In this document: in pieces, positions 2,125 through 60,000 of the stretch
Position numbering within the stretch: position 1 is the first letter of the stretch
How the letters are laid out: every line of letters begins with the position of its first letter
Source: Vicinamibacterales bacterium
GTDB taxonomy: Bacteria > Acidobacteriota > Vicinamibacteria > Vicinamibacterales > UBA2999
Reading direction: 5' to 3'
Assembly: GCA_050742335.1 (NCBI GenBank)
Contig: JBOGIR010000130.1
Coordinates: 1 to 60,794, forward strand
DNA: 60,794 bases
Translations under genes and position numbers: made by a program
Notes under the pieces: generated by a model
What the model saw: only the letters and a program-made list of their open reading frames with translations
Databases searched by the model: none
What the model was told of the DNA's origin: nothing

Positions 2125-2278
2125 CTAGCGAGGCTGCGCCTCAGACCGCCGAGCATGTGGCTCCGCCTCGCTAGGGCAGTGTCTGCTTGCCCGCACTCCG
2201 TGCGGGCGAGACGTCTTGAACGGCCGGCGAAAAACTTGACTCATTTGGTGCGGATTCTGGCCGTTCAAAGACGTCTAG
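2125..2278 (+). repeat. Family A three-hairpin repeat, copy 1
   Basis: Near-identical to 45736-45889 and similar to 47137-47280. Stems are ctagcgaggc/gcctcgctag, cccgcac-tcc-gtgcggg and gacgtcttgaacggcc/ggccgttcaaagacgtc. Confidence 0.85.
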
Positions 2279-4452: not shown

Positions 4453-5295
4453 GTGGTGCGAACGTGGATGGTCGGTCTCGCCGTCGTTGCAGGAGCCAGC
4501 GGTGTCACGTCGGCACAGACAGCGCAGGCTCCTGATACGGAGCAGATCAGAGTGCGCCAGAAGATCTTCATGATGGAGGGCGTGTTCGAGCGGGCGGTGC
4601 AGCTCGGCGTCGAGAACCTGCGCCGCAAGGTTCGCACGGTCATGCCGGACGACGCGCTGCTGCAAGGAAGCGCACCGCAGGTGCGTGGCTTCCGGCTCGA
4701 GGGCTATGGCGTGTTCTTCGACGTCGAGGTGCCGTCGCTGCGGCGCAGCCTGGCGTGGTCGCTGCGAACGATGAACGAGAGCGGCGCGGCGCTGGCGCGC
4801 GACCTGGCGGCGATGAGGGCGTTCGTGCAGGCGATTGCGGATCCGCGCGCGCGTGCCGACTTCGACCGGATCCTGCAGCGCGTTCAGCGGCAGATGGGGC
4901 CGGCAGCCGCGGTGTCGGAACGGGCGGCTGCACAGGGCGGACCGACCGTGGCCGCGCAATCAGTGGGGATTCCGACCGCGCCTCCAGCCCTGGAGCCGTC
5001 TCCGGCTCCGCAGCTCGATGCATCCCTGATGGATCCCAGCGAGACGTACACCGAGGAAGTCAAGGCGGCCCTGATTGACGCGATGATCGAGAACAGCGGT
5101 GCGCTCGTGATTGACGCCGGCGAGTGGCTGACCGTCGCCGCACGGGACAATGCCCGGGGCGATCCGTTCATGCCGGGTGGTCAGGACGCGATGACGCTCG
5201 TCCTTCGCATCAAGGGAAGCGACCTGAACGCGTTTCGTGCCGGCCACGTCACGCTCGAACAGGTGAGGGGCCGCGTGCAGGTTGGCGAGTTCTAG
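4453..5295 (+). CDS. Hypothetical secreted protein, third gene of the ECF module
   Basis: ORF 4435..5295. A GTG at 4453 lies 7 nt after AGGAG (4441-4445). The N-terminus VVRTWMVGLAVVAGASGVTSAQTAQA looks like a signal peptide. I recognised no family. Confidence 0.5.
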   Translation: MVRTWMVGLAVVAGASGVTSAQTAQAPDTEQIRVRQKIFMMEGVFERAVQLGVENLRRKVRTVMPDDALLQGSAPQVRGFRLEGYGVFFDVEVPSLRRSLAWSLRTMNESGAALARDLAAMRAFVQAIADPRARADFDRILQRVQRQMGPAAAVSERAAAQGGPTVAAQSVGIPTAPPALEPSPAPQLDASLMDPSETYTEEVKAALIDAMIENSGALVIDAGEWLTVAARDNARGDPFMPGGQDAMTLVLRIKGSDLNAFRAGHVTLEQVRGRVQVGEF

Positions 5296-5336
5296 CGGGG
5301 CACGGCAAGCCGCGCCCCGCCAGCTCACTTGCGCGC

Positions 5337-5369
5337 CCCGAAACTTGACGCATCGCGTCAGGTTTCGGG
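5337..5369. terminator. 15-bp stem hairpin (REP-like or terminator-like, no U tract)
   Basis: cccgaaacttgacgc-atc-gcgtcaggtttcggg, with one G.T pair. A second GC hairpin gcgggg...ccccgc lies at 5295-5320, directly after the stop at 5293. Confidence 0.35.
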
Positions 5370-5421
5370 CGTTCAAGGGTTCTAGCCGGTACCGGAACCT
5401 TCACGCGGCGCCCGGTGTCTG

Positions 5422-13843: not shown

Positions 13844-13862
13844 CGTTGGCGAGTCGGTAGCT

Positions 13863-14003
13863 GGACCGCTATACGGTCCCGAACGCGAATTTTGTACTGG
13901 TTGTGGACCGTATAGCGGTCCTAGGCGCGCGGAGCGCGCCAAGCCAACGCTGTCAACCAGTCGCGGGCTCGGGATATCAAGGGCAGAGCCCGTGACTGGT
14001 TGG
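13863..14003 (+). repeat. Family D three-hairpin repeat, copy 1
   Basis: ggaccgctatacggtcc...ggaccgtatagcggtcc; ggcgcgc-gga-gcgcgcc; caaccagtcgcgggctc-gggatatcaaggg-cagagcccgtgactggttgg. It matches 43291-43446. Confidence 0.85.
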
Positions 14004-28182: not shown

Positions 28183-28290
28183 TACGGACCACCGAGACAC
28201 CGAGACACCGAGAAACACTAATGATTCGCCTCGATGCCTCTGTGCCTCGGTGTTTCGTGATCATCAAGTGAAGTGAACTTCGGGATCAGG
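28183..28290 (+). repeat. Family B extended element, copy 2
   Basis: tacggaccaccgagacaccgagacaccgagaaacac...gcctcgatgcctctgtgcctcggtgtttcgtgatcatcaagtgaagtga. About 108 nt are alignable with 30561-30668. Confidence 0.85.
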
Positions 28291-30560: not shown

Positions 30561-30668
30561 TACGGAACACCGAGACACCGAGACACTGAGAAACGCCAAT
30601 GATCTGGCCTCGGTGCCTCTGTGCCTCGGTGTTTCGTGATCATCAGGTGAAGTGAGTTCAGGTTCTGG
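30561..30668 (+). repeat. Family B extended element, copy 3
   Basis: A direct repeat of 28183-28290. It fills the gap between the response regulator and histidine kinase genes. Confidence 0.85.
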
Positions 30669-33793: not shown

Positions 33794-36757
33794 ATGGACG
33801 AGAGAGGCCCTGCGCGCGAAGCAGCCCCATTGGGTCAGCCAGAAGCGGTGGGGACACCGGCACTGCAGGGTGATCCGTCAGTCCGCGCGCGCAAGACTGC
33901 GGAGATGAAGGCGCCTGAGGTGCAGGGCCTGGAGTTCCCCCGCTATTTCACGCTGCCGGGTATCGATCCATTCGACGAGGTGGAATGGGAGATCCGCTCG
34001 GCGGTGATTGGCAACGAGCAGGGCAAGGTCGTCTTCGAACAGCGCGACGTCGAGTTTCCGCGCTTCTGGTCGCAGCAGGCCACCAACATCGTCGTGTCGA
34101 AGTATTTCCGCGGGCAGCTGGGGACGCCCGACCGCGAACGGAGCGTCAGGCAGCTGATAGGCCGCGTGGTCGACACGATGACGCAGTGGGCGCGCCAGGA
34201 CAAGTACTTCGCGAGCGAAGAGGCCCTGCTGGCATTCTCGGCCGAGCTGCAGCACCTGCTCGTGTATCAGAAGGCGGCCTTCAACAGCCCCGTCTGGTTC
34301 AACTGCGGATTCGAGAGGGCGCCGCAGTGCTCCGCCTGCTTCATCAACTCCGTGCAGGACACGATGGAGTCGATTCTGACGCTCGCCAGAACCGAAGGGA
34401 TGCTCTTCAAGTTCGGGTCGGGCACGGGCAGCAACCTGTCGTCCATTCGCTCGTCGAGGGAACTGCTTGCCGGCGGCGGCACCGCCAGCGGCCCCGTCTC
34501 GTTTATGAAGGGGTACGACGCGTTTGCCGGCGTCATCAAGTCGGGCGGCAAGACGCGCCGCGCGGCCAAGATGGTGATCCTCAACGCCAATCATCCCGAC
34601 ATCCTCGACTTCATCAACTGCAAGGTCGAAGAAGAGAAGAAGGCGTGGGCGCTCATCGACGCCGGTTACGACGGGTCGTTCACGGGTGTCGCCTACAACT
34701 CGATCTTCTTCCAGAACTCGAACAACAGCGTCCGCGTCACAGACGACTTCATGCGCGCGGTGCTGGATGACGACGAGTGGAAGACGCACGCGGTGACCGA
34801 CGGCCGGGTGATGGACACCTACAAGGCGCGCGATCTGATGCGAATGATTGCCGAGGGAACCTGGATTTGCGGCGATCCCGGCATGCAGTTCGACACCACG
34901 GTCAACGAATGGCACACGTGTCCGGAGACCGGGCGCATCAACGCGAGCAATCCGTGCTCGGAGTACATGTTCCTGGACGATTCGGCCTGCAACCTGGCGT
35001 CGATCAACCTGATGAAATTCGTCAGAGACGACGGCGAGTTCGACGTGGGCGCGTTCAAGGCGGCCTGCCGCGTCATGATCACCGCGCAGGAGATCGTCGT
35101 GCCGAACTCGAGCTATCCCACGAAGGCGATCGAGAAGAACAGCCATGAGTTCCGGCCGCTGGGCCTCGGGTATGCGAATCTCGGCGCGCTCCTGATGTCG
35201 CGCGGCGTGCCGTACGACAGCGACGAAGGTCGTGCGTACGCAGCGGCCATCACGGCGGTGATGACCGGCGAAGCCTACGCGCAGTCGGCGCGCATCGCCC
35301 GGGATCATGGCGGGCCGTTTGTGGGCTACGAAAAGAACCGCGAAGCGTTTCTCCGCGTGATGCGCAAGCATCGCGACGCGGTGGGGGAGATCAATCTGAG
35401 GCTGGTGCCCGCCGATCTTCATGGCGCGGCCAAACAGGCGTGGGAAGAGGTGGAGGAGCTTGGCGAGGACTTCGGCTACCGCAACGCGCAGGCCACCGTG
35501 CTCGCGCCCACCGGCACCATCGGCTTCATGATGGACTGCGACACCACCGGGGTGGAGCCGGACATCGCGCTGGTCAAGTACAAGAAGCTGGTGGGCGGCG
35601 GTCTGATGAAGATCGTCAACGGCACGGTGCCGATGGCGCTGAAGCGGCTGGGCTACACCGAGCCCGAAATCGAGGCGATCGTCCACTACATCGACGAGCA
35701 CGAGACGATAGAAGGCGCGCCGTTTCTCAGGGACGAGCATCTGCCGGTCTTCGATTGCGCCTTCAAGCCGGCCAGGGGCGAACGGTCGATCCACTACATG
35801 GGTCACATCCGGATGATGGGCGCGACGCAGCCGTTCATCTCGGGCGCCATCAGCAAGACGGTCAACGTGCCGCGCGAAGCGTCCGTGGCAGAGATCGAGA
35901 AGGCGTACATCGAGTCGTGGCGGCTCGGCGCCAAGGCCATCTCCATCTACCGCGACGGCAGCAAGCGCACGCAGCCGCTCAACACGTCGAAGGCGGGCGT
36001 TGCCGACACTCGCAATGCGGGCGGTACATCTTCAGAGGTAGTGTCTGGCTTCAGCCGGACGGGGGACGTGCGCGAAGTGGTCAAGGAGGTCGTCAAGATT
36101 GTCGAGCGGCCGACGCGCCGGAAGCTGCCCGACGAACGTCCGTCCATCACGCACAAGTTCGACATCGCCGGGCACGAGGGCTACATCACGGTGGGTCTGT
36201 TCGAGGACGGCCAGCCTGGCGAGATCTTCCTGACGATGGCGAAGGAAGGGTCGACGATTTCGGGCTTTGCGGACGCGTTCGCACAGGCGATTTCCTACGC
36301 GCTGCAGTACGGCGTGCCGCTGCAGGTGCTGGTCGACAAGTTCAGCCACGCGCGCTTCGAGCCGTCGGGGATGACGAAGAACCCCGAGGTGCGCTTCGCC
36401 AAGTCGATCGTCGACTACATCTTCCGATGGATGGCGACGAAGTTCCTGTCGCCCGAAGCGCAGTTCCGCGCCGGCGTGAATATGCGCAGGGATCAGGAAT
36501 CAGGGGTTGGGGATCAGGGATCAGGGATCAGCGAACAGGGATCAGATCCGGAATCCGACGACCCTCGTTCATCGACCGGGGTAGCCGGAGGCCTCAGGGC
36601 CTCCGGGCAATCAAGACCGTCCGCAAAGCCCGCCGAATTCGCGGCCATCCAGACGCCGGAAGACGCGCCCCCCTGCTCGACGTGCGGCTCGCTGATGATC
36701 CGCAGCGGCTCGTGCTACAAGTGCGTCAACTGCGGGACGACATCAGGCTGCGCCTGA
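33794..36757 (+). CDS. nrdJ: Class II (adenosylcobalamin-dependent) ribonucleotide reductase
   Basis: 987 aa. The SD ggaggga lies before the ATG at 33794. FPRYFTLPGIDPFDEVEWE...ATNIVVSKYFRG...NSPVWFNCG...ACFI...GSGTGSNLS.IRSS.E...NPCSEYMFLDDSACNLAS. The C-terminus is a Cys4 ribbon CSTCGS...CYKCVNCG. Confidence 0.9.
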   Translation: MDERGPAREAAPLGQPEAVGTPALQGDPSVRARKTAEMKAPEVQGLEFPRYFTLPGIDPFDEVEWEIRSAVIGNEQGKVVFEQRDVEFPRFWSQQATNIVVSKYFRGQLGTPDRERSVRQLIGRVVDTMTQWARQDKYFASEEALLAFSAELQHLLVYQKAAFNSPVWFNCGFERAPQCSACFINSVQDTMESILTLARTEGMLFKFGSGTGSNLSSIRSSRELLAGGGTASGPVSFMKGYDAFAGVIKSGGKTRRAAKMVILNANHPDILDFINCKVEEEKKAWALIDAGYDGSFTGVAYNSIFFQNSNNSVRVTDDFMRAVLDDDEWKTHAVTDGRVMDTYKARDLMRMIAEGTWICGDPGMQFDTTVNEWHTCPETGRINASNPCSEYMFLDDSACNLASINLMKFVRDDGEFDVGAFKAACRVMITAQEIVVPNSSYPTKAIEKNSHEFRPLGLGYANLGALLMSRGVPYDSDEGRAYAAAITAVMTGEAYAQSARIARDHGGPFVGYEKNREAFLRVMRKHRDAVGEINLRLVPADLHGAAKQAWEEVEELGEDFGYRNAQATVLAPTGTIGFMMDCDTTGVEPDIALVKYKKLVGGGLMKIVNGTVPMALKRLGYTEPEIEAIVHYIDEHETIEGAPFLRDEHLPVFDCAFKPARGERSIHYMGHIRMMGATQPFISGAISKTVNVPREASVAEIEKAYIESWRLGAKAISIYRDGSKRTQPLNTSKAGVADTRNAGGTSSEVVSGFSRTGDVREVVKEVVKIVERPTRRKLPDERPSITHKFDIAGHEGYITVGLFEDGQPGEIFLTMAKEGSTISGFADAFAQAISYALQYGVPLQVLVDKFSHARFEPSGMTKNPEVRFAKSIVDYIFRWMATKFLSPEAQFRAGVNMRRDQESGVGDQGSGISEQGSDPESDDPRSSTGVAGGLRASGQSRPSAKPAEFAAIQTPEDAPPCSTCGSLMIRSGSCYKCVNCGTTSGCA
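36038..36060 (+). repeat. Family E hairpin copy in frame inside nrdJ
   Basis: gtagtgtctggc-ttca-gccggac encodes VVSGFSRT. The stem keeps pairing through a T.G wobble. Confidence 0.75.
36489..36548 (+). repeat. Tandem heptamers (gggatca-type) in frame inside nrdJ
   Basis: gggatcaggaatcaggggttggggatcagggatcagggatcagcgaacagggatcag encodes RDQESGVGDQGSGISEQGS. Confidence 0.75.
36585..36606. repeat. 9-bp perfect hairpin ccggaggcc-tcag-ggcctccgg in frame inside nrdJ
   Basis: It has the same stem and the same left flank (ggtagccggaggcc) as the intergenic element at 7403-7455. Confidence 0.75.
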
Positions 36758-36835: not shown

Positions 36836-36863
36836 GTACGTAGTGTCCGGCTTCAGCCGGACC
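36836..36863 (+). repeat. Family E hairpin; left 28-bp inverted terminal copy of the low-GC islet
   Basis: gtacgtagtgtccggcttcagccggacc is the exact reverse complement of 38437-38464. Confidence 0.85.
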
Positions 36864-38436: not shown

Positions 38437-38464
38437 GGTCCGGCTGAAGCCGGACACTACGTAC
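38437..38464 (-). repeat. Family E hairpin; right 28-bp inverted terminal copy of the islet
   Basis: ggtccggctgaagccggacactacgtac is the reverse complement of 36836-36863. Its last base overlaps the stop codon (38464-38466) of the dehydrogenase gene. Confidence 0.85.
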
Positions 38465-40860: not shown

Positions 40861-41015
40861 GGCCACGGAGTCACGCCCCTCGACAATGCTCGCCCCTCGG
40901 CCTTGCTCGGGGTGTCCCGAGCATTCGTCGAGGGACGGGGTGTCCTGAGCGATAGTCGAAGGACGGGGACGCGGAGGTGAACAATAATCCTCTGTGTCTC
41001 CGCGTCCCTGTGGCC
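40861..41015 (+). repeat. Family C core flanked by inverted family-B-type ends, copy 2
   Basis: The left end is ggccacggagtcacg and the right end is ctctgtgtctccgcgtccctgtggcc. The core matches 10654-10770. Confidence 0.75.
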
Positions 41016-43271: not shown

Positions 43272-43290
43272 CGCGTTCTCGCGCCTCTTT

Positions 43291-43446
43291 GGACCGCTAT
43301 ACGGCTCCTTACGAGAATTCTGTACCCGTTGCCTACCCTTGAGGGGGCGCCGTATAGCGGTCAATGCGCGCGGAGCGCGCCAAGAGACGCTGCCAACCAG
43401 TCACGGGCTCTGCGGGATATCAAGGGCAGAGTCCGTGACTGGTTGG
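43291..43446 (+). repeat. Family D three-hairpin repeat, copy 2
   Basis: ggaccgctatacgg...ccgtatagcggtc; gcgcgc-gga-gcgcgc; caaccagtcacgggctctg-cgggatatcaaggg-cagagtccgtgactggttgg. Confidence 0.85.
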
Positions 43447-43462: not shown

Positions 43463-45172
43463 ATGCCTCCAACCGAAGACCTGACCGACACCAGGGAACA
43501 GGCGCTCACCCACCGGCTGCGCGATGTGATGGAGCTGCTCGAGTCGATTGCCGCCGACCGCACGGTGCTCGAGAACGTGCCCGAGCGCGAACGCAAGCGG
43601 TTCCTCCAGGCCGTTGCGTCGGTCTACCATCCGGACCGCGTCGAGCGCCGGCGTATGGCGAAGATCGTGGCCCGCCAGCGGAAAGCGGCGCGCGTGCAAC
43701 GCGACCAAGTGACGCGCGCGGCGACAGGAATCCAGACGCTGCGGCGGAAGCCGGCGTTTCACACTCCGAACGTGTTTGCACCCGAAGAGTTCAACCCCGA
43801 AGACACTCACGCCGAGCACCCTGAGGGAGCCACGCGCGAGCTGCAGCACTGTTACATCTGCAAGCGGAAATACTCGCTCGTCCATCACTTCTACGATCAG
43901 CTCTGTCCGGCGTGTGCGGCATTCAACTTCGGGAAGCGCGCGGAGGTCGCGGACCTGCGTGGACGCGTCGCACTGCTGACCGGCGGTCGCGTCAAGATTG
44001 GGTATCAGGCCGGACTCAAGCTGCTCCGTTGCGGGGCGCGTCTGATTGTGACAACGAGGTTTCCAAGGGACGCGGCGGCGCGATACGCCCAGGAGCCGGA
44101 TTTCGCCGAGTGGGGAGACCGGCTGGAGATCTTCGGTCTCGACCTGCGGCACACGCCAAGCGTCGAGGCGTTCTGCCGCGAGCTCCTCGCCACGCACGAC
44201 CGCCTCGATTTCATCGTGAACAACGCGTGTCAGACGGTTCGAAGGCCACCGGATTTCTACGCGCATATGATGGAGGGAGAAACAACGGCGCTCGCCGACA
44301 TGCCGGCGCACGTACGCAGGCTCGTGGGGTCGTACGAGGGACTGCGCGAGTATCACATGTTGCCGGAAAGTCCGGCTTCCGCCTACGCCAAAGTCGGGTC
44401 GCCCCGCGACCCGACAAACCAGCGCTGGCTGGACGGTCCGCTTCGGCGGACCGTCCCGGCGGACAAGAAAGCCGGACACTACGGCGCTGACGGTCCGGCT
44501 AAAGCCGGACACTACGTACATGAGGAGATCGCGGTGCTGGCAGCGGTCGGGCAGCACGCTCCGGGACTGACGCGCGCGGCGGAACTGTCGCAGCTCCGGC
44601 TGCTGCCGGAGGAACTGGCCGCGCAGACAGATCTGTTTCCGGAGGGGCAGCTCGATCGGGACCTGCAGCAGATCGATCTGCGCGGCCGCAACTCCTGGCG
44701 GCTGCTGCTGGCCGACGTGTCGTCAGTCGAGCTGCTGGAGGTGCATCTCGTCAACGCCGTTGCGCCGTTCGTCCTCAGCGCGCGCCTGAAGCCGCTCATG
44801 CTGCGCAGGCCGGAGCGCAACAAGCACATTGTCAACGTCTCGGCCATGGAAGGGCAGTTCTACCGGAAGTTCAAGACGACGAGGCATCCGCATACGAACA
44901 TGGCGAAGGCGGCGCTCAACATGATGACGCGCACGTCAGCCACCGACTACCACAACGACGGGATTCACATGAACAGCGTGGACACCGGCTGGATCACCGA
45001 CGAGGATCCCATGGAGATTTCAGCGCGCAAGCTCGCGGAGCAGCGATTTCATCCACCGCTCGACGCCATCGACGGCGCCGCGCGCATCCTCGACCCGATC
45101 GTCCACGGGTTCAACACCGGCACACATGTGTGGGGGCAGTTCCTGAAGGATTATCAGCCGACGGATTGGTGA
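43463..45172 (+). CDS. SDR-family oxidoreductase with a long N-terminal extension containing a CxxC...CxxC pair
   Basis: [29 protein letters not shown] (Rossmann-like)...FIVNNACQT...NVSAMEG...YRK...[12 protein letters not shown]. The N-terminal part has [23 protein letters not shown] repeat-derived insert lies at 44468-44519. Confidence 0.7.
44468..44519 (-). repeat. One and a half family E copies in frame inside the SDR gene
   Basis: aaagccggacactacgg...ggtccggc-taaa-gccggacactacgtac encodes [18 protein letters not shown]. Confidence 0.75.
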
Positions 45173-45199: not shown

Positions 45200-45227
45200 G
45201 GTCCGGCTAAAGCCGGACACTACGTAC
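45200..45227 (-). repeat. Family E hairpin copy
   Basis: ggtccggc-taaa-gccggacactacgtac, 28 nt after the SDR stop. Confidence 0.8.
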
Positions 45228-45247
45228 GCAAAGGTGCCGTACAATTT

Positions 45248-45295
45248 CGTCTCCGTGTCTCCGTGTCTCCGTGGCCCGTATTTCGGTGGCCCGTG
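45248..45295 (+). repeat. Family B half element (ctccgtgt units, gtggccc units)
   Basis: cgtctccgtgtctccgtgtctccgtggcccgtatttcggtggcccgtg. Confidence 0.65.
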
Positions 45296-45298
45296 TCG

Positions 45299-45691
45299 AT
45301 GCAGATTATCTGGCGCCTGTTGATCAACGCGGCCGCGTTGTGGGCGGCCACCCGGATCGTGTCCGGCATGTCCTTTGACGGCGAGTGGCAGACGCTGTTC
45401 ATCGTCGCGCTCGTCTTCGGGGTGCTGAACGTCTCCGTGCGTCCTCTGCTGTGGGTCATGACGCTGCCGCTGCTCATCGTGACCCTCGGCCTGTTCACCT
45501 TCGTGCTGAACGCTCTGATGCTCTGGCTCACGAGCGTCATCTCGGACTGGCTGGGACTCGGCTTCCACGTCGGGGGTTTCAGCGCCGCGTTTCTCGGTGC
45601 CCTCGTCGTCAGCATCGTCAGCTTCATGCTGTCGCTGTTCGTCACCTCGAATACGCGCCGCCAGCACCGCGTGGAGGACTGGAGGTCGTGA
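45299..45691 (+). CDS. Small four-helix membrane protein of the phage-holin-4/DUF360 type
   Basis: The ATG at 45299 follows the repeat. LINAAALWAATRIVSGMSFDG...VFGVLNVSVRPLLWVMTLPLLIVTLGLFTFVLNALMLWLTS is the family pattern. Confidence 0.6.
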   Translation: MQIIWRLLINAAALWAATRIVSGMSFDGEWQTLFIVALVFGVLNVSVRPLLWVMTLPLLIVTLGLFTFVLNALMLWLTSVISDWLGLGFHVGGFSAAFLGALVVSIVSFMLSLFVTSNTRRQHRVEDWRS

Positions 45692-45735
45692 TTCAACCAC
45701 CGGTGTCGATGTGTACAACCTGCTCGAGGCGAATC

Positions 45736-45889
45736 CTAGCGAGGCTGCGCCTCAGACCACCGAGCATGTGGCTCCGCCTCGCTAGGGCAGTGTCTGCTTG
45801 CCCGCACTCCGTGCGGGCGAGACGTCTTGAAGGGCCGGCGAAAAAACTTGACTCATTTGGCGTAGACTCTAGCCCTTCAAGACGTCTAG
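45736..45889 (+). repeat. Family A three-hairpin repeat, copy 2
   Basis: Nearly identical to 2125-2278, except that the hairpin 3 stem reads cttgaagggcc / agcccttcaag. Confidence 0.85.
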
Positions 45890-45903
45890 AGCTGACCCGC
45901 CGA

Positions 45904-47046
45904 ATGAGGCGTTCGACATTCTGGACTGTGAGTGCGGCGATCATGTGGCTGCTTGGCGCTATGACCTCGCGCGTGTCAGCTCGCCAGGCTGCGCCCGAAC
46001 AGGCTCCATTGGTAACGGAAAACCTGTTCAAGAACATCCAGGTTCTGAAGGGGATTCCCATCGACACGTTTTTCGACGTCATGGGGATGTTCGCCGCCTC
46101 GATGGGCGAGGACTGCACGTACTGTCATTCCAAGGAAGCCGTGTTCAGGCACGAGGCGTTTGCCGACCCGACTCCGAAAATTCAACGTGCGCGCCAGATG
46201 ATCGTCATGATGCAGACGATCAACAAGAACTTCTTCGGGGGCACGCCGCGTGTGACCTGCTTCACGTGCCATCGGGGCGCAAACAGTCCGGTTGCCGCGC
46301 CGCGACTCTCCCTGCAGTACGGTCCGCCAGACGACGATCCGAACGTGATCGATTTTCCCGCCGATACCGCCTCCGCCGATCAGATTCTCGATCGGTACCT
46401 TCAGACGCTGGGCGGGACCTCGTTGTTGGCCAAGGTATCGAGCTTCACAGCCAAGGGCACGTACTCGGGGTTCGACACAGGGTTCAAGGAGGTCCCGGTC
46501 GAGATCGTGGCCAGGGCTCCAAGTCAGCGGAGCTGGACGGTCCACATGGCCGATGGCGACAGTCACAGGGTCTTCGACGGTCGTAATGGCTGGTGGGCCG
46601 GCCCGGACAGCCCGGCGCCCATCGAGACACTCACGAGCGGGAATCTGGACCGATACAGGCTAGAGGCGCTCGTGGCGTTTCCAGCCGGGATCAAGCAGGC
46701 GTTCAGCCAATGGAAGGTCGGCCGCACGGCCATCGACGATCGCGCCGTTCGCATCGTGCAGGGTACGAACCCTGGCTCCGGCCTGCTTCCGGTCAACTTC
46801 TACTTCGACAACATGTCGGGACTGCTCATTCGCTGGGTGCGATGGAACGCCACGCCCCTCGGTCCGGTGCCAACGCAGATTGACTACGATGATTATCGCG
46901 ATGTCGCCGGCGTGAAGATGCCCTTCACCTGGACGGTCAGCCAGACGTACATGCAGATGACGATCAAGCTGAGCGCGATTCAGCCCAACGTTCCAGTCGA
47001 TGCGGCGGCATTCGCAAGACCGGCGGCGGCGACGGCCAGGCCGTAG
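45904..47046 (+). CDS. Secreted dihaem c-type cytochrome (reaction-centre cytochrome-subunit-like N-domain) fused to a beta-rich C-terminal domain
   Basis: The ATG at 45904 follows repeat A2. It has a signal peptide and two CxxCH motifs (CTYCH, CFTCH). FKNIQVLKGIPIDTFFDVMGMFAASMG resembles PRC-cytochrome-like proteins. Confidence 0.65.
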   Translation: MRRSTFWTVSAAIMWLLGAMTSRVSARQAAPEQAPLVTENLFKNIQVLKGIPIDTFFDVMGMFAASMGEDCTYCHSKEAVFRHEAFADPTPKIQRARQMIVMMQTINKNFFGGTPRVTCFTCHRGANSPVAAPRLSLQYGPPDDDPNVIDFPADTASADQILDRYLQTLGGTSLLAKVSSFTAKGTYSGFDTGFKEVPVEIVARAPSQRSWTVHMADGDSHRVFDGRNGWWAGPDSPAPIETLTSGNLDRYRLEALVAFPAGIKQAFSQWKVGRTAIDDRAVRIVQGTNPGSGLLPVNFYFDNMSGLLIRWVRWNATPLGPVPTQIDYDDYRDVAGVKMPFTWTVSQTYMQMTIKLSAIQPNVPVDAAAFARPAAATARP

Positions 47047-47136
47047 GGGCTCTTGTGTCTCTTCGGTGGCGTTCGATCGGGGCGAGACGTAACTGCTGGT
47101 AGCCCACGAGTTCGTGGAGTACATTTGCAGCGGAAA

Positions 47137-47280
47137 CTAGCGAGGCTCCGCCTCAGACCGTCCAGGCTCCGCCTCGCTAGTGGCAGTATCTTCTTGCCCC
47201 GCTCCGCGGGGCGAGACGTCTTGAAAGGCCAGTCGAACACATGACTCATGTGTCACGAGTTTGGCCTTTCAAGACGTCGA
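47137..47280 (+). repeat. Family A three-hairpin repeat, copy 3 (diverged)
   Basis: ctagcgaggc...gcctcgctag; ccccgc-tcc-gcgggg; gacgtcttgaaaggcc...ggcctttcaagacgtc. Confidence 0.8.
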
Positions 47281-47335
47281 GATTCGGATCGCCGGCGGCT
47301 ACACCAGGTAGGCAACGACAGATACAGGAGGCACT

Positions 47336-47731
47336 ATGAGCACGAGGCTCGCGGCCGCGACGGTTTCCTTGGGATTACTACTGGCGGGAACCGCACCGGT
47401 GCAGGCGCATCACTCCTTTTCGGCGACCTATGACGGGAACAAGCCAATCACGTTGAGAGGGATTGTCAGCAAGCTGGGGTGGTCGAATCCACACGCGCAC
47501 ATATATATAGATGTCAAGGCTCCGGACGGAAAGATCGTGACCTGGGAAATCGAGAGCGCAGGCGCGAGCAACCTGCTCCGGGCAGGCATACGGAAAGAAG
47601 ACTTCATCGGCACCGAAGTCATCGTCAAAGGGTTTCTGGCCAAGGACGGGACCCCCGCCGCCAATGCCAGCAGTTTCACCCTGGTCGAGACGAAGAAGGA
47701 ATATGTGAGCGAGGAGAAAACGACTCCGTAG
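47336..47731 (+). CDS. Small secreted protein, DUF6152-like
   Basis: SD caggagg. The signal peptide ends VQA-HHSFSATYD. WSNPHAHIYIDV...VTWEIES. The family name is recalled from memory only. Confidence 0.5.
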   Translation: MSTRLAAATVSLGLLLAGTAPVQAHHSFSATYDGNKPITLRGIVSKLGWSNPHAHIYIDVKAPDGKIVTWEIESAGASNLLRAGIRKEDFIGTEVIVKGFLAKDGTPAANASSFTLVETKKEYVSEEKTTP

Positions 47732-48257: not shown

Positions 48258-49106
48258 ATGCCACATCGTTTCGCGACGTTGTCGATCGTCCTGGTTGTCG
48301 TTTCGGGTCTCACGCATTCGCAGTCGTCGTTGGAGGCCCAGGCCCCGGCTGCTGCTCGAGCGTACGCGCCGCCGAGGACCGTCGATGGCCATCCGGATTT
48401 GCAGGGCGTTTGGCGGGTGTGGAACCTCGCGAAATACGACCTCGAAGACCACGGGGCCAAACCGGGTGTCCCCGCAGGGAAAGGTTTTGTGATCGACCCG
48501 CCGGACGGCAGGATTCCGTATCAGACGTCGGCGCTGGAGCGGCGGCGGAAGAACTACGAAGGTACCAATACATTCGACCCTGCGAAGCACACCGACCCGC
48601 TCGCCAAGTGTTATCTGCCCGGCATTCCGCGACTGACCTACCTGGGATGGCCGTTTCAGATCATTCAGACGCCGCAGTACGTGCTGTTCAACTACGAGTG
48701 GAGTCATAAGAAGCGCTACGTTCCGATCAACAGCAAGACGCCGCTGCCGAATCCGGACGATGAGAGCAACTGGAACGGAATGGCGCGCGGTCGCTTCGAA
48801 GGCAATTCGCTGGTTGTCGACGTGACGAATTTCAATCCCTACACCTGGTTCGACATGGCAGGGAACTTCCACAGCGAGGCCCTCAAGGTGCTCGAGCGGT
48901 ACTCGCCGCTCGACGCGGATACTCTCCAGTACGACGTCCGGATTGAAGATCCCAAGGTCTTCACCAGGCCGTGGGCCATCCGCATGTTGATCCAGCGTCA
49001 GAAGGACATCGGCATCCTCGATTACGAGTGCACCGCGATGCTCGACGAACAGGGAATTCATCACACCTGGCCCAGGGACTTCGATGTGGTGGAAATCAAC
49101 AAGTAG
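48258..49106 (+). CDS. Secreted hypothetical protein, paralogue 1
   Basis: 282 aa with a signal peptide. It shares PDL.G.W, IDPPDGRIPYQ, G.FEGN.LVV.VTNFN and DPKVFTRPW with the next gene. Confidence 0.6.
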   Translation: MPHRFATLSIVLVVVSGLTHSQSSLEAQAPAAARAYAPPRTVDGHPDLQGVWRVWNLAKYDLEDHGAKPGVPAGKGFVIDPPDGRIPYQTSALERRRKNYEGTNTFDPAKHTDPLAKCYLPGIPRLTYLGWPFQIIQTPQYVLFNYEWSHKKRYVPINSKTPLPNPDDESNWNGMARGRFEGNSLVVDVTNFNPYTWFDMAGNFHSEALKVLERYSPLDADTLQYDVRIEDPKVFTRPWAIRMLIQRQKDIGILDYECTAMLDEQGIHHTWPRDFDVVEINK

Positions 49107-49121
49107 AAGGAACAGAGCCTC

Positions 49122-50027
49122 ATGAGCGCCCTCCCATCGTTCTTGTTGTTGATCCCGGCAGTCCTGGTTATGGTCGTCGTGACGTCCGTGCCCACCGCTG
49201 GCCAGGGCGGTCGCGGCGGTGGGGCTGCCGCCGTTCAGGAAGGTCGCGGCGGCCGTGGGGGCGGAGCGCCGGCGCCAGCGCGACCTGTTCCGCGCAGAGC
49301 CGACAGCAAACCGGATTTGACTGGGCGATGGGACGGATCGGGAGGCGCGCTCACGAACACGGTGATCCTCGAGGATCATCCTGGAGGCTTTGGGATTACC
49401 GGAGGGAAGTCGCTGATCATCGACCCGCCAGACGGCATCATCCCGTACCAGCCGTGGGCGCTGGCCGAGCGCGACCGGCGCCGAGACGACGCCAATGGGT
49501 ACGAAGATCCCGTCGGCCACTGCGAGTTCTACGACATCGGGCGCATCCACAGCTTCGCGCACGACATCATGCATGCGGGTGACACGGTCGTCATCAATGC
49601 CAACCAGCACATCACGCGAGTGATCGATACGAAGCGGCGTGCGCACCTTCCCGCGGGCATTCGTCTCTGGCAGGGAGATCCCATCGGCCGCTGGGAGGGC
49701 GACACGCTGGTGGTCGAGAGTACCAACTTCAACGGCAAGAGCCGCATGGCCATCGGCGGCGATTTCTACAGCGCCGATGCGCGCGTCGTCGAGCGCTTCG
49801 CCATGCTCGACTCGAACACCCTCAGATGGACGATGACAATTGACGATCCGAAGGTGTTCACGCGGCCGTGGACGATGACATCCGCAGCGCCCATGAGGCG
49901 CGTGCCCGCGCTGGGTGCTGCGGCCTTCGATTCGGAAGACACCTGCCACGAGGGGAACGTCGATCTCGTGCACTTGAAGAACGTCTACGACCAGGCCCGC
50001 AAGACGACGGGTTCGCAGCCCAAGTAG
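49122..50027 (+). CDS. Secreted hypothetical protein, paralogue 2, with an N-terminal Gly/Arg-rich tract
   Basis: 301 aa. IDPPDGIIPYQ, GRWEGDTLVVESTNFN and DDPKVFTRPWTM. The tract GQGGRGGGAAAVQEGRGGRGGG follows the signal peptide. Confidence 0.6.
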   Translation: MSALPSFLLLIPAVLVMVVVTSVPTAGQGGRGGGAAAVQEGRGGRGGGAPAPARPVPRRADSKPDLTGRWDGSGGALTNTVILEDHPGGFGITGGKSLIIDPPDGIIPYQPWALAERDRRRDDANGYEDPVGHCEFYDIGRIHSFAHDIMHAGDTVVINANQHITRVIDTKRRAHLPAGIRLWQGDPIGRWEGDTLVVESTNFNGKSRMAIGGDFYSADARVVERFAMLDSNTLRWTMTIDDPKVFTRPWTMTSAAPMRRVPALGAAAFDSEDTCHEGNVDLVHLKNVYDQARKTTGSQPK

Positions 50028-53816: not shown

Positions 53817-53844
53817 GTACGTAGTGTCCGCCTTCAGGCGGACC
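53817..53844 (+). repeat. Family E hairpin copy with a compensatory stem change
   Basis: gtacgtagtgtccgCc-ttca-gGcggacc versus gtacgtagtgtccgGc-ttca-gCcggacc at 36836. A G-C pair is flipped to C-G. Confidence 0.8.
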
Positions 53845-57082: not shown

Positions 57083-60000
57083 TTACCCGCTCCGGCCCAT
57101 ATACCCGCTGAAGACGGGCACGCGTCGGCCGGCGGCGGCTGCTGCAGCCTGGGCGGCCACGTCGGGCTCGACATCGGCGAGCCGTTTCAGCAGGTCCCCT
57201 TCCATCGCGGCAATCGGCACGCCATTGCGATAGACGATGCGGTTGCCCTGTGTGGCGCGGATGCGGTCGCCAGGGGTGATGATGCCGGTGAAATTCAGTG
57301 GATCTGCCGCGCTGATCGTGATCAGGCGGTGGTCGTCGCCCGAACGGCGCATCTCACGCAGCCGCTCGACGGCGTCCGGCAGCGCGAACTGCTCGCCCGC
57401 CATGCCCGAGACAAAGCGACCGCCGCGGATCTCGCCGCGCGCCTCGAGCCTCCGATAGATGGACACCAGTTCGCGCCACGGTACGCCGGCAGCCTCACGT
57501 GACACCACGCGCCGGAAGACGACGCCGTAGCGCTGGAGCAGCGTCCAGGCCAGTGTGTCCACCGCCACGTCGCGCGGCACTTCGCCCGACTCCCGCAACG
57601 CGAACCAGCGACCATCGGGGCCGGCGCGGTGCGCGCCGGTCGTCCACGGCGTGGCACCGATGACTCTCCGCAGTCCGGCGGCTCCATCGGAGCTGATGCA
57701 GCCAGCCGCGACCAGCTCGGCAAGCGCCGCATGAAGGTCGATTGCCCCGATCCCACAGGCGGAAGCGAGATCGTGCGCGAAGGAGGCGCCGTGCGAGCGG
57801 AGGCGATCGAGGACAGGATGTTCGACAGCGTCGAGGGCTGCCGGCCTCAGGGTGAGCCACGCCTCGGCATGTTCGCGGAGAAACAACGCAATCGGCGTGG
57901 CGCCCACCACCTGCGTCGGGCCGGTGGACAGGCGCGCCCAGCACACCTCCCCGGTCAGACACAGCATGTCGAGCAGCGCCGGCTCGTACCGGTCGAGCCG
58001 TGCCGGCAGCACGTCGCGTTCCCAGGCACGCGCGGGCACCTCGACGCCGTCGAGTTGCGCCATGATCGCCCGCAACCCATCGGGCCCGGCAAGCGTGGTC
58101 GAGGGGTCGACGTGCTGCCAGGCCAACAGGAACCGCATGAAGTCCGCCGGCGTCACCGGCGCAATCTCGGCGCGCAGGCGGTTCAGTGTGTAGCGATGCA
58201 TGCGGGCCAGCAGCGCGCGGTCGCACCATTCGACGGTGGCGGCACCCGGGGTAAAGACGCCACGCAGCACCACGCCGTCCGATTCGAGCGCGAGCAGCGT
58301 CGCGTCCGCATCGGCTGGCGACACGCCGAGCAGTTCGGCCAGCGTCGCTGCGGTGACCGGCCCGGCCACCGCCACGCGTCCCCGGAGGAGCGACACCAGC
58401 GCGTCATCCCTCGTCCAGACGCGCGCCGCTCGCGACTCGGGCGCCACGATTGGCGGATCCATCGTCCCGGTTGGATGCACTGTCAGCATCTCGGGGAGAC
58501 GTTCCGCAGCAACCCAGAGGGGCCGGTGCGCACCAACGGCGATTCGCGTGGCTCGGCCGCGCTCCACCAGCTCGCGGGCCATCGTCGCGTCCGCTTCGTG
58601 CTCGAGCAGAACCCCGGTCGTCACAAGGGCGTCGTGCAGCTCTTCGACGTCGCGGGGATCCGGCCGCACCTCGTCCACGACGCGGGCGATGGCGCCAGCG
58701 TCGAGCGATCCTACGTCTCCGGCCTCCAGACTGACGGGTCGCCGCGACTGCACCGCGCGCGTCCGCCGCTCTTCCAGCGGCGCATCGTCCACGAACGAGT
58801 ACGGCTTGGCGTTCAGCACTTCGTCCGCGAAGGCTGACGGCTCAGGGGTGTCGCGCGAGACCAGTTGCAGCTCGCCCGCATGAATGGCCGTCAGCACTCT
58901 TGCGAGGCCGTCGATGTCCATCGCGTCTTCCAGACAATCGCGCAGTGTCTGGCTCACCAGCGGGTGATCGGGAATCTCGCGGTCGCCGGGAATGTTGTCG
59001 AGACAGGCGGCCGCATCGGGAAACGCGGCGGCGAGCAGGTCGTCGGCCTGCATGCGCTGCAACTGGGGCGGCACCTTGGATCCACCCCGGCTGCGGGGGA
59101 CGGCGAGCGACACCGTGGCGTTCCAGCGCCAGCGGGTCGCAAAGAGCGGCGCGTCGAGCACCGCCTGGATCAGCGTGTCGCGCAGCGTGGCCGGGTGCAG
59201 ATATCGGAAGACGTCGGCCAGCGGGAACGAATGCTGCGGGCCGAGCGACAGCAGCAGCGCGTCTTCGGTGGCCACCGACTGCAGCTCGAAATTGAACTGA
59301 CGGCAGAAGCGCTTCCGCAGCGCGAACGCCCATGCCTTGTTGATCCGGCTGCCGAACGGCGCGTGCAGGACGAGCTGCATGCCACCCGACTCGTCGAAGA
59401 ACCGTTCCAGCACGAGCGTCTGCTGCGTCGGAATAACGCCAAGAGCCGAACGGCCGGCGGCCAGATATTCGAATAGCTGCCGGGCTGCGCCGTTCGAGAC
59501 TCCGATCTCAGAGACCATCCACTCCGTGACGGAGTCGGCCCACGCATGCTCTGCGGCGCGAGCTGTTGATTCGTCTCCGTGTCTCCGCCTGTCCGCCGTA
59601 GCCTCGGCGAAGGCGGATGTCTCTGTGGCCTGTGATCGCGACGTCTCCGTGGCCCGTGATGGCGTTTCCGTCGTGGCCTGTGACTGCCCCTCCCTGGTGG
59701 CCCGTGATTGCCTCTCCGTGGCCTGCGATCGCGCCGCCAGGCGCTCTTCGACGTCCGCGCGCAGGTCGCTGACGGCGCGAGACAGCTCGTCGCTGCGCGC
59801 CGGCGCCTCACCCAGCCAGAAGGGAATCGTCGGGGGCGCGCCGTGCGCGTCAACCACGCGCACTGTACCGGCGGTCACGCGCGTGATCTGCCACGAGGCG
59901 TTCCCGAGCTGAAAGATGTCGCCCGCCAGGCTCTCGATGGCGAAGTCTTCGTTGAGCGTGCCGATGAAGGTTTCGTCAGGCTCGACCACGACGCGGTAAT

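What the first reader, a model, noticed from the sequence alone, without database searches (positions are those of the whole stretch)
45736..45889. About 150-nt three-hairpin element (family A) in three copies with compensatory base-pair changes
Copies lie at 2125-2278, 45736-45889 and 47137-47280, all in the same orientation. At one position of the hairpin 3 stem the three copies read gaaCggcc/ggccGttc, gaaGggcc/agccCttc and gaaAggcc/ggccTttc. That is C-G, G-C and A-T at the same stem position. Hairpin 2 changes from cccgcac-tcc-gtgcggg to ccccgc-tcc-gcgggg while keeping the tcc loop. The loop of hairpin 3 keeps a tgactca core. Covariation of this kind indicates selection on the fold, at the RNA or single-stranded DNA level, rather than simple sequence drift. 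Two copies sit immediately 5' of secreted-protein genes (the cytochrome at 45904 and the DUF6152-like gene at 47336). This could be an undescribed structured RNA or MITE/REPIN-like family.
Basis: seen in the sequence. Interest (0 to 1): 0.7.

Follow-up and report, generated by a model that had tools for sequence, protein, structure and literature searches.

The report
Three-hairpin mobile repeat of Vicinamibacterales
A non-coding stretch of about 150 bases that folds into three hairpins is scattered in many copies through the genomes of a common group of soil bacteria, and it behaves like a small jumping repeat that lands on CTAG sites (often a gene's stop codon), not like a dedicated regulatory RNA.

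Summary
Three copies (2125-2278, 45736-45889, 47137-47281, all on the + strand) share a three-hairpin fold. In 57 copies from the window and Vicinamibacterales/Acidobacteriota assemblies (the 50 genome-scan loci alone come from 20 MAGs), 96.5% of stem cells pair and 17 of 37 pairs show double-sided changes. No Rfam family, plasmid or phage matches.

It is not a cis-regulatory RNA. Its orientation to neighbouring genes is random and it sits in all four kinds of intergenic region. The closest orthologous loci lack copies 2 and 3. Another relative has an independent insertion, in the opposite orientation, on the stop codon of the same cytochrome gene.

Most copies are bounded by CTAG, a tetranucleotide about 8-fold depleted in the window. 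In about a third of copies this CTAG overlaps a neighbour's TAG stop codon. The ends are not inverted repeats. The target context is one-sided (A at -4).

Sister families, two of them in the window, keep the architecture, the linker and hairpin 2's short pyrimidine loop (TCC or TTC), with different outer stems.

Best reading: a new family of non-autonomous structured mobile repeats (REPIN/BIME/MITE-like). I infer, without proof, that a trans-acting single-strand (HUH/RAYT-like) enzyme moves it. No transposase was found. Modest interest.

The parts
45736..45889 (+). Family A copy 2, the finding itself. It lies between a holin-like gene (45263-45691) and the cytochrome gene (45904-47046).
   Evidence: Model R1 scores it 164.9 bits. 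The orthologous site in L051/L052 is empty and reads ATC-CTCG-AGC.
45736..45785 (+). Hairpin 1 of copy 2. The outer stem is CTAGCGAGGC/GCCTCGCTAG and the inner stem is GCC/GGC. The first CTAG is part of the stem.
   Evidence: Folds. Ten outer pairs are 97.7% paired in 57 copies, and four of them change on both sides in family C.
45786..45799 (+). Linker GGCAGTGTCTGCTT. It is unpaired, and is conserved between families A and B as GGCAGTATCT..CTTG.
   Evidence: Alignments.
45800..45818 (+). Hairpin 2, GCCCGCAC-TCC-GTGCGGGC. A G+C-rich stem with a conserved TCC loop.
   Evidence: Five of its 8 pairs show changes on both sides.
45820..45887 (+). Hairpin 3. The stem is AGACGTCTTGAAGGGCC.../...AGCCCTTCAAGACGTCT. 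The loop of about 30 nt holds the conserved AACTTGACTCATTyG. The hairpin is followed by the terminal AG (45888-45889).
   Evidence: Pair 155/219 reads GC 24, CG 18, AU 12.
2125..2278 (+). Family A copy 1. It is antisense to both neighbours. Its 3' CTAG (2275-2278) overlaps the TAG stop of the response regulator gene 2275-2874(-). It lies upstream of the ABC-F gene 82-2106(-).
   Evidence: 162.2 bits. Gene identities from Pfam.
47137..47281 (+). Family A copy 3, of a different subfamily. It is 96% identical to L012:5058-5201. It lies between the cytochrome gene and the DUF6152 gene (47336-47731).
   Evidence: 148.6 bits. Absent from the orthologous loci L051 and L052. Nearest-neighbour identity.
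13861..14003 (-). Sister family B copy. It has the same three-hairpin layout, linker and TCC loop, but different hairpin 1 (CAACCAGTCACGGGCTC...) and hairpin 3 (GACCGCTATACGG...) stems.
   Evidence: 49.1 bits with the family A model. Sequence, alignment.
43289..43446 (-). Sister family B copy.
   Evidence: 32.9 bits. Sequence, alignment.
5292..5385 (+). Short hairpin element of about 94 nt, bounded by CTAG and possibly related. Its first CTAG overlaps the stop codon of the ORF ending at 5295.
   Evidence: 20 bits. Sequence. ORF end.

Best explanation
Family A is a non-autonomous, non-coding mobile repeat of Vicinamibacterales (Acidobacteriota), 145-180 nt long.

Shown:
- It occurs in many diverged copies per genome.
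- It sits almost always between genes, in either orientation.
- It is present or absent at orthologous sites.
- Most copies are bounded by CTAG: 84% of 5' ends, and 54% of 3' ends in the one set that is unbiased there.
- In about a third of copies this CTAG overlaps the TAG stop codon of a neighbouring gene.
- Its three hairpins are kept by compensatory changes, both within the family and across sister families that share only the layout, the linker and hairpin 2's short pyrimidine loop (TCC or TTC).

Inferred: the hairpins are the recognition features for a trans-acting enzyme that moves the element as single-stranded DNA. The enzyme would cut at the C^T of CTAG at both ends and join into a C^T target. 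That produces CTAG at both junctions without a true duplication and restores CTAG on excision. It is the chemistry described for HUH tyrosine enzymes of the RAYT/IS200 type.

On this reading the stems co-vary because only copies that still fold are copied. Effects on neighbouring genes (supplying a stop codon, placing a strong hairpin in a 5' or 3' untranslated region) would be by-products.
For: Copy number and spread:
- An exact two-anchor pattern hit 50 loci in 20 MAG assemblies, with up to 15 in one assembly.
- Copies within one genome are only 86-92% identical.

Mobility:
- L051 and L052, whose cytochrome is 92% identical, lack copies 2 and 3.
- The copy 2 site reads ATC-CTCG-AGC there, against ATC-CTAG[element]CTAG-AGC in the window.
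- L053 (85% orthologue) has a separate copy in the opposite orientation. It sits exactly on the cytochrome stop codon (L053:3655-3808(-), 141 bits).
- A family B copy splits a DNA_alkylation gene.
- Head-to-tail and tail-to-tail copies share one CTAG-type junction.

No link to transcription:
- Of 93 copies with both neighbours called, 33 are co-oriented tandem, 20 anti-oriented tandem, 23 divergent and 17 convergent.
- No promoter or terminator was found in the 45600-47400 stretch that holds copies 2 and 3.
- There is no excess of G.U wobbles.

Structure: 96.5% paired, and 17 of 37 pairs change on both sides.

Ends and target:
- The 5' end is CTAG in 42 of 50 and 51 of 64 copies.
- The 3' end is CTAG in 27 of 50 copies. 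In the alignment of 47 full copies its C is invariant and its T is in 43 of 47, while the following AG varies.
- CTAG occurs 25 times in the window against 192 expected.
- The flank has A at -4 in 68 of 114 copies, with no mirror signal downstream.
- The element's own 3' end reads ACGT|CTAG, so it too has A at -4.

Precedent:
- E. coli RAYT cuts at CT, guided by the AG of the GTAG at the hairpin foot (PMC3479197).
- GTAG REP termini often supply TAG stops (PMC3733652).
- Six classical GTAG REPs lie in this window.
Against: - No transposase of any kind was found next to a copy, or between two element ends, in about 0.9 Mb of fetched DNA.
- Two HUH-motif regex screens of the DNA held at each point found nothing: on the window plus 56 loci, on the window plus 136 loci. 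The single candidate hit proved to be an alpha/beta hydrolase.
- All 80 loci fetched with a hairpin 3 anchor hold the element. All but a few degenerate copies that are not cut by a contig end carry the full three-hairpin unit, and none has a gene in place of hairpins 1 and 2.
- Hairpins 1 and 3 are unrelated in sequence, unlike the near-identical end hairpins of IS200/IS605 and the two arms of a REPIN.
- Copies a few kb apart lie in both orientations. There is therefore no sign of the replication-strand bias typical of IS608-type elements.
- A simple 4-bp CTAG (or TA) target duplication followed by decay explains the termini about as well.
- Compensatory changes in DNA palindromes can also arise by hairpin-templated mutation, without selection.
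- Gene calls for the context statistics come from my own crude GC3-based caller.
Confidence: 0.8

Rival explanations
1. It is a structured non-coding or cis-regulatory RNA: a leader, an sRNA, or an RNA stability or processing element. On this view the fold is selected at the RNA level, and the multiple copies are independent functional genes.
For: - The fold is strong and the covariation is significant.
- The hairpin 3 loop motif AACTTGACTCATTyG and the hairpin 2 loop (TCC in most copies) are conserved across subfamilies.
- The layout is kept across sister families whose stems are entirely different.
- Copies 2 and 3 lie in the 5' regions of genes and must be transcribed if those genes are co-transcribed with their upstream neighbours.
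- No Rfam family matches, so it would be new.
Against: - Orientation to flanking genes is random, and a quarter of copies lie between divergent genes.
- Neighbouring genes have no common function.
- The closest orthologous loci lack the element.
- No promoter or terminator was found in the 45600-47400 stretch that holds copies 2 and 3.
- G.U wobbles (12) are not favoured over A.C mismatches (25).
- One whole genome lineage carries an uncompensated T.C mismatch in hairpin 3.
- Truncated and fused forms persist.
- Both strands fold equally well.
- Individual copies may still have been co-opted.
Confidence: 0.08
2. It is a classical MITE, a deletion derivative of an insertion sequence. A DDE transposase of the IS630/Tc1 or IS5 type would move it. 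These are families I recall as favouring CTAG or TA targets and duplicating TA or CTAG.
For: - CTAG is found at both ends of most copies, and a single CTAG-like tetranucleotide at the empty site.
- The size, non-coding nature, copy number and insertion polymorphism all fit.
- The CTAG preference of IS630 and IS5 is from my own knowledge. It was not tested here.
Against: - There are no terminal inverted repeats. The first 30 nt and the reverse complement of the last 30 nt agree at 10 of 30 positions, 4 of which are the CTAG itself.
- Families B and C also have unlike ends.
- The target context is one-sided (A at -4 upstream, nothing mirrored downstream). A symmetric DDE synaptic complex on a palindromic target would not be expected to give this.
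- Family B shows no CTAG at its ends.
- No DDE gene with these ends was seen.
Confidence: 0.1
3. The stem covariation is not selected at all. It would reflect a few founder subfamilies copied many times, plus hairpin-templated correction of quasi-palindromes. The fold would then have no role in either mobility or RNA function.
For: - Most double changes separate subfamilies rather than single copies. The shuffle control therefore overstates independence.
- Template-switch repair of quasi-palindromes is an established mutational route. This is from my own knowledge.
Against: - At least ten separate pair positions changed on both sides in hairpins 1, 2 and 3, among subfamilies and family C.
- Families A and B kept the same three-hairpin layout while replacing both outer stems completely. 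That is hard to obtain without some constraint on folding.
- Pairing is 96.5%, although copies differ by 8-30% overall.
Confidence: 0.05

Closest known systems
REP / REPIN elements and their RAYT (HUH tyrosine) enzymes
   Same: - Extragenic palindromic repeats in many copies.
- A conserved tetranucleotide ending in TAG at the foot of a G+C-rich hairpin. The 5' half of hairpin 1, CTAG-CGAGGC-TCC-GCCTCG, looks like a REP with CTAG in place of GTAG.
- Termini that supply TAG stop codons to neighbouring genes.
- Long-lived, diverged copies.
- Singletons, dimers and clusters.
- Junctions at CT dinucleotides, as in RAYT cleavage (PMC3733652, PMC3479197).
   Different: - The unit is about 150 nt with three different hairpins, not a 20-40 nt palindrome or two inverted copies of one.
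- The tag is CTAG, not GTAG.
- No RAYT gene flanked by these repeats was found.
- A quarter of copies lie between divergent genes, which REPs tend to avoid.
Mosaic structured repeats with no known transposase: BIME (E. coli), RIME (rhizobia), BOX (S. pneumoniae), CGTC-tagged REPs
   Same: - Modular build from several stem-loops.
- Modules can occur alone or in other combinations. Forms seen here include hairpin 1 only, no hairpin 1, no hairpin 3, and clusters that mix families A, B and C.
- Intergenic location.
- No coding capacity.
- No identified mobilising enzyme.
   Different: No sequence relationship. The fixed order hairpin 1 - linker - hairpin 2 - hairpin 3 is far more regular than in BIMEs. 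The host phylum is different.
Bacterial MITEs (Correia/NEMIS, RUP, ERIC, Nezha)
   Same: Size (100-300 bp), copy number, insertion polymorphism, strong secondary structure, insertion close to genes, and a short specific target containing TA.
   Different: MITEs are defined by terminal inverted repeats matching a parent insertion sequence. This element has none, and no parent was found.
IS200/IS605-derived miniature elements (PATEs) and single-strand HUH transposition
   Same: Asymmetric ends, hairpins near the ends, a one-sided target preference next to the left end, and a right end that resembles the target (A-n-n-n-CTAG on both).
   Different: In IS200/IS605 the left and right hairpins are near-identical and set back from the ends. 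Here they differ and reach the ends. No orientation bias was seen at kb scale. No TnpA or TnpB was found nearby.

Membership tests
Any Rfam RNA family | A match to a curated covariance model at its gathering score | tested here: not met
   There are no matches in the whole window at gathering thresholds. An E-value scan of copy 2 gives only sub-threshold miRNA-type hairpin hits, 13-21 bits against cut-offs of 54-97.
Cis-regulatory RNA (leader or riboswitch type) | Fixed orientation upstream of, and co-transcribed with, a consistent class of genes | tested here: not met
   Of 93 copies, 33 are co-oriented tandem, 20 anti-oriented tandem, 23 divergent and 17 convergent. Neighbouring genes are unrelated. 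The element is absent at orthologous loci.
MITE | Terminal inverted repeats of about 15-30 bp | tested here: not met
   The two ends agree at 10 of 30 positions in register, 4 of them in the CTAG. Families B and C also have unlike ends.
MITE | Target-site duplication flanking the element | tested here: inconclusive
   CTAG is at both ends of most copies, and one CTAG-like tetranucleotide at the empty site. This fits a 4-bp or 2-bp duplication equally well as insertion at C^T without duplication.
MITE | A parent insertion sequence with the same ends in the same or related genomes | tested here: not met
   None was seen in 136 fetched loci. All but a few degenerate hairpin 3-anchored hits that are not cut by a contig end are the full small element, and none has a gene in place of hairpins 1 and 2. 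Whole genomes could not be searched, so absence is not proven.
Mobile non-autonomous repeat (general) | Multiple dispersed copies, with presence or absence at orthologous sites | tested here: met
   50 genome loci and more than 120 metagenome stretches. Empty sites in L051 and L052, and an independent insertion in L053.
REP / REPIN-RAYT | A short imperfect palindrome with a conserved 5' GTAG tag | tested here: inconclusive
   The 5' half of hairpin 1 is CTAG + CGAGGC-TCC-GCCTCG. Solo copies of this part exist (L037:165, L030:5218, L010:6845). The tag is CTAG, not GTAG. True GTAG REPs are a separate family in the same window.
REP / REPIN-RAYT | A REPIN is two copies of the same REP in inverted orientation | tested here: not met
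   Hairpins 1 and 3 are each long inverted repeats but are unrelated to one another. The unit also has a third hairpin and a conserved linker.
REP / REPIN-RAYT | A single-copy RAYT gene flanked by the repeats | not testable with these tools
   Only about 8-kb loci around matches could be read. Two motif screens found no HUH/Y1 gene in the DNA held at each point, about 0.9 Mb at the second screen. Complete genomes need to be scanned.
IS200/IS605-derived PATE | Similar subterminal hairpins at both ends, and insertion 3' of a fixed 4-5 nt target | tested here: not met
   The hairpins differ and reach the ends. A one-sided target signal does exist: A at -4, then CTAG.
Intrinsic terminator | A G+C-rich hairpin followed by a run of U | tested here: not met
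   No terminator-like site was found in 45600-47400 on either strand. Hairpin 2 is preceded, not followed, by a T-rich stretch.
Small protein gene | A reading frame conserved among copies | tested here: not met
   The reverse-strand ORF that starts at ATGAGTCAAG and ends at the terminal TAG in copy 1 is broken or shifted in most copies.

The most novel reading that the evidence does not exclude
The three-hairpin unit may be more than a passive repeat. It could be the substrate, or the guide or scaffold, of a mobilisation system not yet described in Acidobacteriota.

In such a system a conserved core (the linker GGCAGTATCT..CTTG plus hairpin 2's short pyrimidine loop, TCC or TTC) would be read by one protein family. 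The interchangeable outer hairpins 1 and 3 would set family specificity and the cut site at C^TAG.

A related possibility is that the host has recruited the units for a function, for example marking or protecting gene ends at TAG stop codons.

My evidence excludes neither. The core is shared by families whose outer stems have been entirely replaced. No known transposase type fits all the features.
Probability: 0.12. Interest if true: 0.7.

Novelty: new member of a known kind. Interest (0 to 1): 0.35.

Why it matters
Vicinamibacterales are among the most abundant soil bacteria, and almost all of their genomes are metagenome assemblies.

- **Practical value.** A widespread repeat of about 150 nt that sits at gene ends is worth knowing for assembly, binning and gene calling. 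It supplies or overlaps stop codons, and it creates long antisense ORFs such as 2116-3618 in this window.
- **Strain typing.** It gives a marker through insertion polymorphisms.
- **Biological value.** It adds a phylum, and an unusual three-module, CTAG-tagged architecture, to the REP/BIME/MITE world.
- **A testable question.** Sister families share a conserved core but swap their outer stems. This makes it possible to ask which enzyme reads these hairpins and whether it cuts at C^T, as RAYTs do.
- **Limit.** It does not open a new kind of biology unless the enzyme turns out to be new.

Tried and rejected
- **Small protein.** The reverse strand of copy 1 holds a 39-codon ORF from the conserved ATGAGTCAAG to the terminal TAG. 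The frame is not kept in other copies.
- **Promoter or terminator inside the element.** None was found. By eye, the TTGACT in the hairpin 3 loop has no -10 partner at 16-18 nt.
- **Pseudoknot between the hairpin 3 loop and the linker.** I considered this by eye only. The candidate pairing CAAGGA/UCUUG does not co-vary between subfamilies.
- **IHF site in the hairpin 3 loop.** By eye, only a partial match to WATCAANNNNTTR. Not pursued.
- **Terminal inverted repeats.** Absent.
- **Element-associated protein.** I clustered all predicted proteins in 50 loci. The recurrent clusters are histidine kinases, ABC ATPases and a secreted family with no Pfam hit (WEGDTLVV motif). There is no transposase.
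- **HUH/Y1 motif screens.** Two regex screens, one of the window plus 56 loci and one of the window plus 136 loci, gave nothing. One false hit proved to be an alpha/beta hydrolase.
- **Autonomous parent.** I used the one metagenome scan with a hairpin 3-only anchor, to catch a larger element that uses hairpin 3 as its end. The 80 loci fetched all hold the small element.
- **Homology of the window to the 50 genome loci outside the element.** None was found. Empty sites had to be reached through the cytochrome orthologues instead.
- **Plasmid and phage collections.** No match.
- **Literature.** I found no description of such repeats in Vicinamibacterales or Acidobacteria.

Full report
**Observation**

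Each copy has four parts. Coordinates are for copy 2.
- Hairpin 1, 45736-45785: CTAGCGAGGC...GCCTCGCTAG, with an inner GCC/GGC stem.
- An unpaired linker, 45786-45799: GGCAGTGTCTGCTT.
- Hairpin 2, 45800-45818: a G+C-rich stem with a TCC loop.
- Hairpin 3, 45820-45887: stem AGACGTCTTGAAnGGCC... with a loop of about 30 nt that holds AACTTGACTCATTyG. The bases AG follow it.

The folds are much more stable than shuffled sequence. As RNA the z-scores are -4.6, -5.9 and -9.0. As DNA, both strands of copy 2 fold well, with z -7.9 and -6.6.

**How widespread it is**

An exact two-anchor pattern, covering the 3' arm of hairpin 1 and the 5' arm of hairpin 3, found 50 loci in the species-representative genome collection. 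They come from 20 assemblies. All are Vicinamibacterales or Acidobacteriota MAGs, or MAGs whose labels look wrong. One assembly has up to 15 copies.

No Rfam family matches, at gathering scores or at permissive E-values. No plasmid or phage record matches. I found no description in the paper library.

**Structure and covariation**

I aligned 47 full copies and wrote down a 37-pair structure by hand. On that alignment 96% of cells pair.

I built a covariance model (R1) and used it to align 57 copies. The results:
- 96.5% of cells are paired.
- 17 of 37 pairs change on both sides.
- 0 of 500 shuffles reach the observed values, and slid-partner controls pair at 33-44%.
- One hairpin 3 pair reads GC 24, CG 18, AU 12.
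- Three hairpin 2 pairs swap G-C, C-G and A-U.

Much of this variation separates subfamilies rather than single copies, so the counts overstate independent events. There are still at least ten separate compensated positions.

A relative I call family C (L043:2254-2418) has four compensated changes in the outer stem of hairpin 1. It also has a wholly different upper stem in hairpin 3.

One whole genome lineage (CAZDLW01) carries an uncompensated T.C mismatch in hairpin 3.

**Sister families**

The model also picked up two weaker window hits, 13861-14003(-) at 49 bits and 43289-43446(-) at 33 bits. These are a second family, B. It has the same order of parts and the same linker (GGCAGTATCTCTTG), and hairpin 2 again has a TCC loop. 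Its hairpin 1 and hairpin 3 stems are unrelated to those of family A.

A subfamily A2 has different features:
- different inner pairs in hairpin 1;
- a GAAA-type loop on hairpin 2;
- CTAG on both sides of hairpin 3.

Partial and rearranged forms also occur:
- copies without hairpin 1;
- copies without hairpin 3;
- the 5' arm of hairpin 1 fused to hairpin 3;
- a 100-nt insert between hairpins 1 and 2;
- solo 5' fragments.

Different families cluster within a few kb (L012, L043).

**It is not a cis-regulatory RNA**

I used a simple GC3-based gene caller of my own. It is crude, but adequate for telling strands apart. The 93 copies with both neighbours called divide as follows.

| Position of the copy | Copies |
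|---|---|
| Tandem genes, co-oriented with them | 33 |
| Tandem genes, anti-oriented | 20 |
| Between divergent genes | 23 |
| Between convergent genes | 17 |

This is close to the random expectation for intergenic regions.

- Neighbouring genes are unrelated in function.
- Copy 1 in the window is antisense to both its neighbours.
- The 45600-47400 stretch, which holds copies 2 and 3, has no sigma-70-type promoter and no intrinsic terminator.
- A short reverse-strand ORF is not conserved.
- G.T wobbles (12) are no commoner than A.C mismatches (25, or 15 without one apex pair). Nothing therefore points to one transcribed strand.

**It is mobile**

I searched for orthologues of the cytochrome gene that lies between copies 2 and 3 and fetched their contigs.

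The closest loci, L051 and L052, encode a 92% identical protein with the same gene order. They lack both copies. At the copy 2 site they read ...GATC-CTCG-AGCGG. The window reads ...AATC-CTAG[element]CTAG-AGCTG.

L053 (85% orthologue) has no element at either window site. It does have a separate family A copy in the opposite orientation, placed exactly on the cytochrome stop codon: CCC-TAG|ACGTCTTGAA... (L053:3655-3808(-), 141 bits).

A family B copy in L012 splits a DNA alkylation repair gene between ...EYAAGD and FLGIKVP....

Two family A copies in L033 sit head to tail and share one CTGG junction. In L043 a family C copy and a family A copy sit tail to tail and share one CTAG.

Within a genome, copies are 86-92% identical. 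The spread is therefore old, not recent.

**Ends and target**

The 5' end is CTAG in 42 of 50 copies in the genome set. It is CTAG in 51 of 64 distinct copies in the metagenome set, which is unbiased at that end.

The 3' end is CTAG in 27 of 50 copies in the set that is unbiased there. In the 47-copy alignment its C is invariant and its T is present in 43 of 47, while the following AG varies.

In 28 copies the 5' CTAG overlaps the TAG stop of a co-oriented upstream gene. In 18 copies the 3' CTAG overlaps the stop of a convergent gene. Together that is about a third of roughly 123 copies.

The L053 case shows that the insertion used the native stop position. The cytochrome ends at the same residue in the window, in L052 and in L053.

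CTAG is about 8-fold depleted in the window: 25 seen against 192 expected. Nine of the 25 lie inside the three family A copies.

The two ends are not inverted repeats. They agree at 10 of 30 positions, 4 of them in the CTAG itself.

The upstream flank has A at -4 in 68 of 114 copies, with no mirror-image signal downstream. The element's own 3' end reads ACGT|CTAG, so the target resembles the right end.

**Mechanism: what is shown and what is inferred**

Shown: this is a dispersed, non-coding, structurally constrained repeat. It inserts between genes, and occasionally within them, at CTAG-type sites in either orientation.

Inferred: the element has unlike hairpin ends, no inverted repeats and a one-sided target signal, and its junctions fall on CT. 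These features fit single-strand cutting and joining by an HUH tyrosine enzyme better than a DDE transposase.

For the E. coli REP-associated enzyme, cleavage is between the C and T of a CT dinucleotide. The AG of the GTAG tag at the hairpin foot pairs with that CT (PMC3479197). CTAG contains both the CT and the AG.

Cutting at C^TAG at both ends and joining into a C^T target would give CTAG at both junctions without duplication. It would also restore CTAG on excision.

GTAG REP termini are known to supply TAG stop codons (PMC3733652). Six classical GTAG REPs lie in this window, so the host probably has or had a RAYT.

**Evidence against the inferred mechanism**
- No HUH gene or any transposase was found in about 0.9 Mb of fetched DNA.
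- No larger element uses hairpin 3 as an end.
- Hairpins 1 and 3 are unlike each other.
- Nearby copies lie in both orientations.
- A plain 4-bp or 2-bp target duplication followed by decay fits the termini about equally well.

I put the mobile-repeat verdict at about 0.8 to 0.9. I put the HUH-type mechanism at about one in three.

**Comparison with known families**

The element works like REP/REPIN, BIME, RIME, BOX and MITE elements. It fails the defining tests for several families:
- a MITE, because it has no inverted ends and no parent insertion sequence was seen;
- a REPIN, because it is not two copies of one REP, and its tag is CTAG;
- an IS200/IS605 miniature, because its end hairpins differ.

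It is best filed as a new family, or small superfamily (A, A2, C, B), of structured interspersed repeats in an under-studied phylum.

**Verdict**

The finding is real and undescribed, and it is useful for annotation. It is of modest general interest unless the enzyme that reads these hairpins proves to be new.

Noticed in passing
window 36038-36060(+), 36840-36862(+), 38438-38460(-), 44493-44515(-), 45201-45223(-), 53821-53843(+): There are six copies of a classical GTAG-tagged REP, GTAG-TGTCCGGC-TTyA-GCCGGAC, where none is expected by chance. This family is separate from the three-hairpin elements. It suggests the host has or had a RAYT. Exact copies also occur in L040 and L052.
   Followed up: partly
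whole window: CTAG is about 8-fold under-represented: 25 occurrences against 192 expected from base composition. Roughly half of the occurrences lie inside the hairpin elements.
   Followed up: partly
window 5292-5385 (+): A hairpin-rich element of about 94 nt, bounded by GTTCTAG on both sides. Its first CTAG overlaps the stop codon of the ORF ending at 5295. It matches the family A model weakly (20 bits) and has a loop, AAACTTGACGCAT, that resembles the hairpin 3 loop.
   Followed up: partly
L012:5406-5550 (-): A family B copy interrupts a DNA alkylation repair gene (PF08713). The N-terminal part ends ...EYAAGD, and the rest resumes FLGIKVP after the 150-nt insert. L012 holds five three-hairpin elements within 4.3 kb.
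   Followed up: yes
window 27419-27487, 28183-28250, 30561-30603, 45246-45279, 59570-59719: Runs of an octamer-type tandem repeat (GTGTCTCC / CGGAGACA and variants) recur in intergenic stretches.
   Followed up: no
window 7972-8430: A 180-nt unit is repeated about 2.5 times in tandem, at 83-93% identity.
   Followed up: no
window 10699-10759 and 40904-40964: A 61-nt repeat at 90% identity (TGCTCGGGG.GT.CCGAGCA...) occurs at two distant sites. It may be another small repeat family.
   Followed up: no
L001, L006, L010 and others (CAZDLW01); L004, L007 and others (CAWARO01): MAGs labelled 'uncultured Bifidobacteriaceae' and 'uncultured Acidimicrobiia' carry 15 and 7 copies of this element. Apart from one other Acidimicrobiia-labelled MAG, the element was found only in Vicinamibacterales or Acidobacteriota. 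The taxonomic labels look wrong.
   Followed up: no
window 48258-50027; L009:1771-3518, L039:4571-5557, L043:4709-5704 and others: A paralogous family of secreted proteins with a WEGDTLVV motif and no Pfam match recurs in these genomes. Its nearness to elements appears coincidental.
   Followed up: partly
window 2116-3618 (+): A 500-codon ORF starts just upstream of copy 1 and runs through it. It is an antisense shadow of two minus-strand genes. The element's ATG-containing hairpin 1 loop could mislead gene callers.
   Followed up: partly
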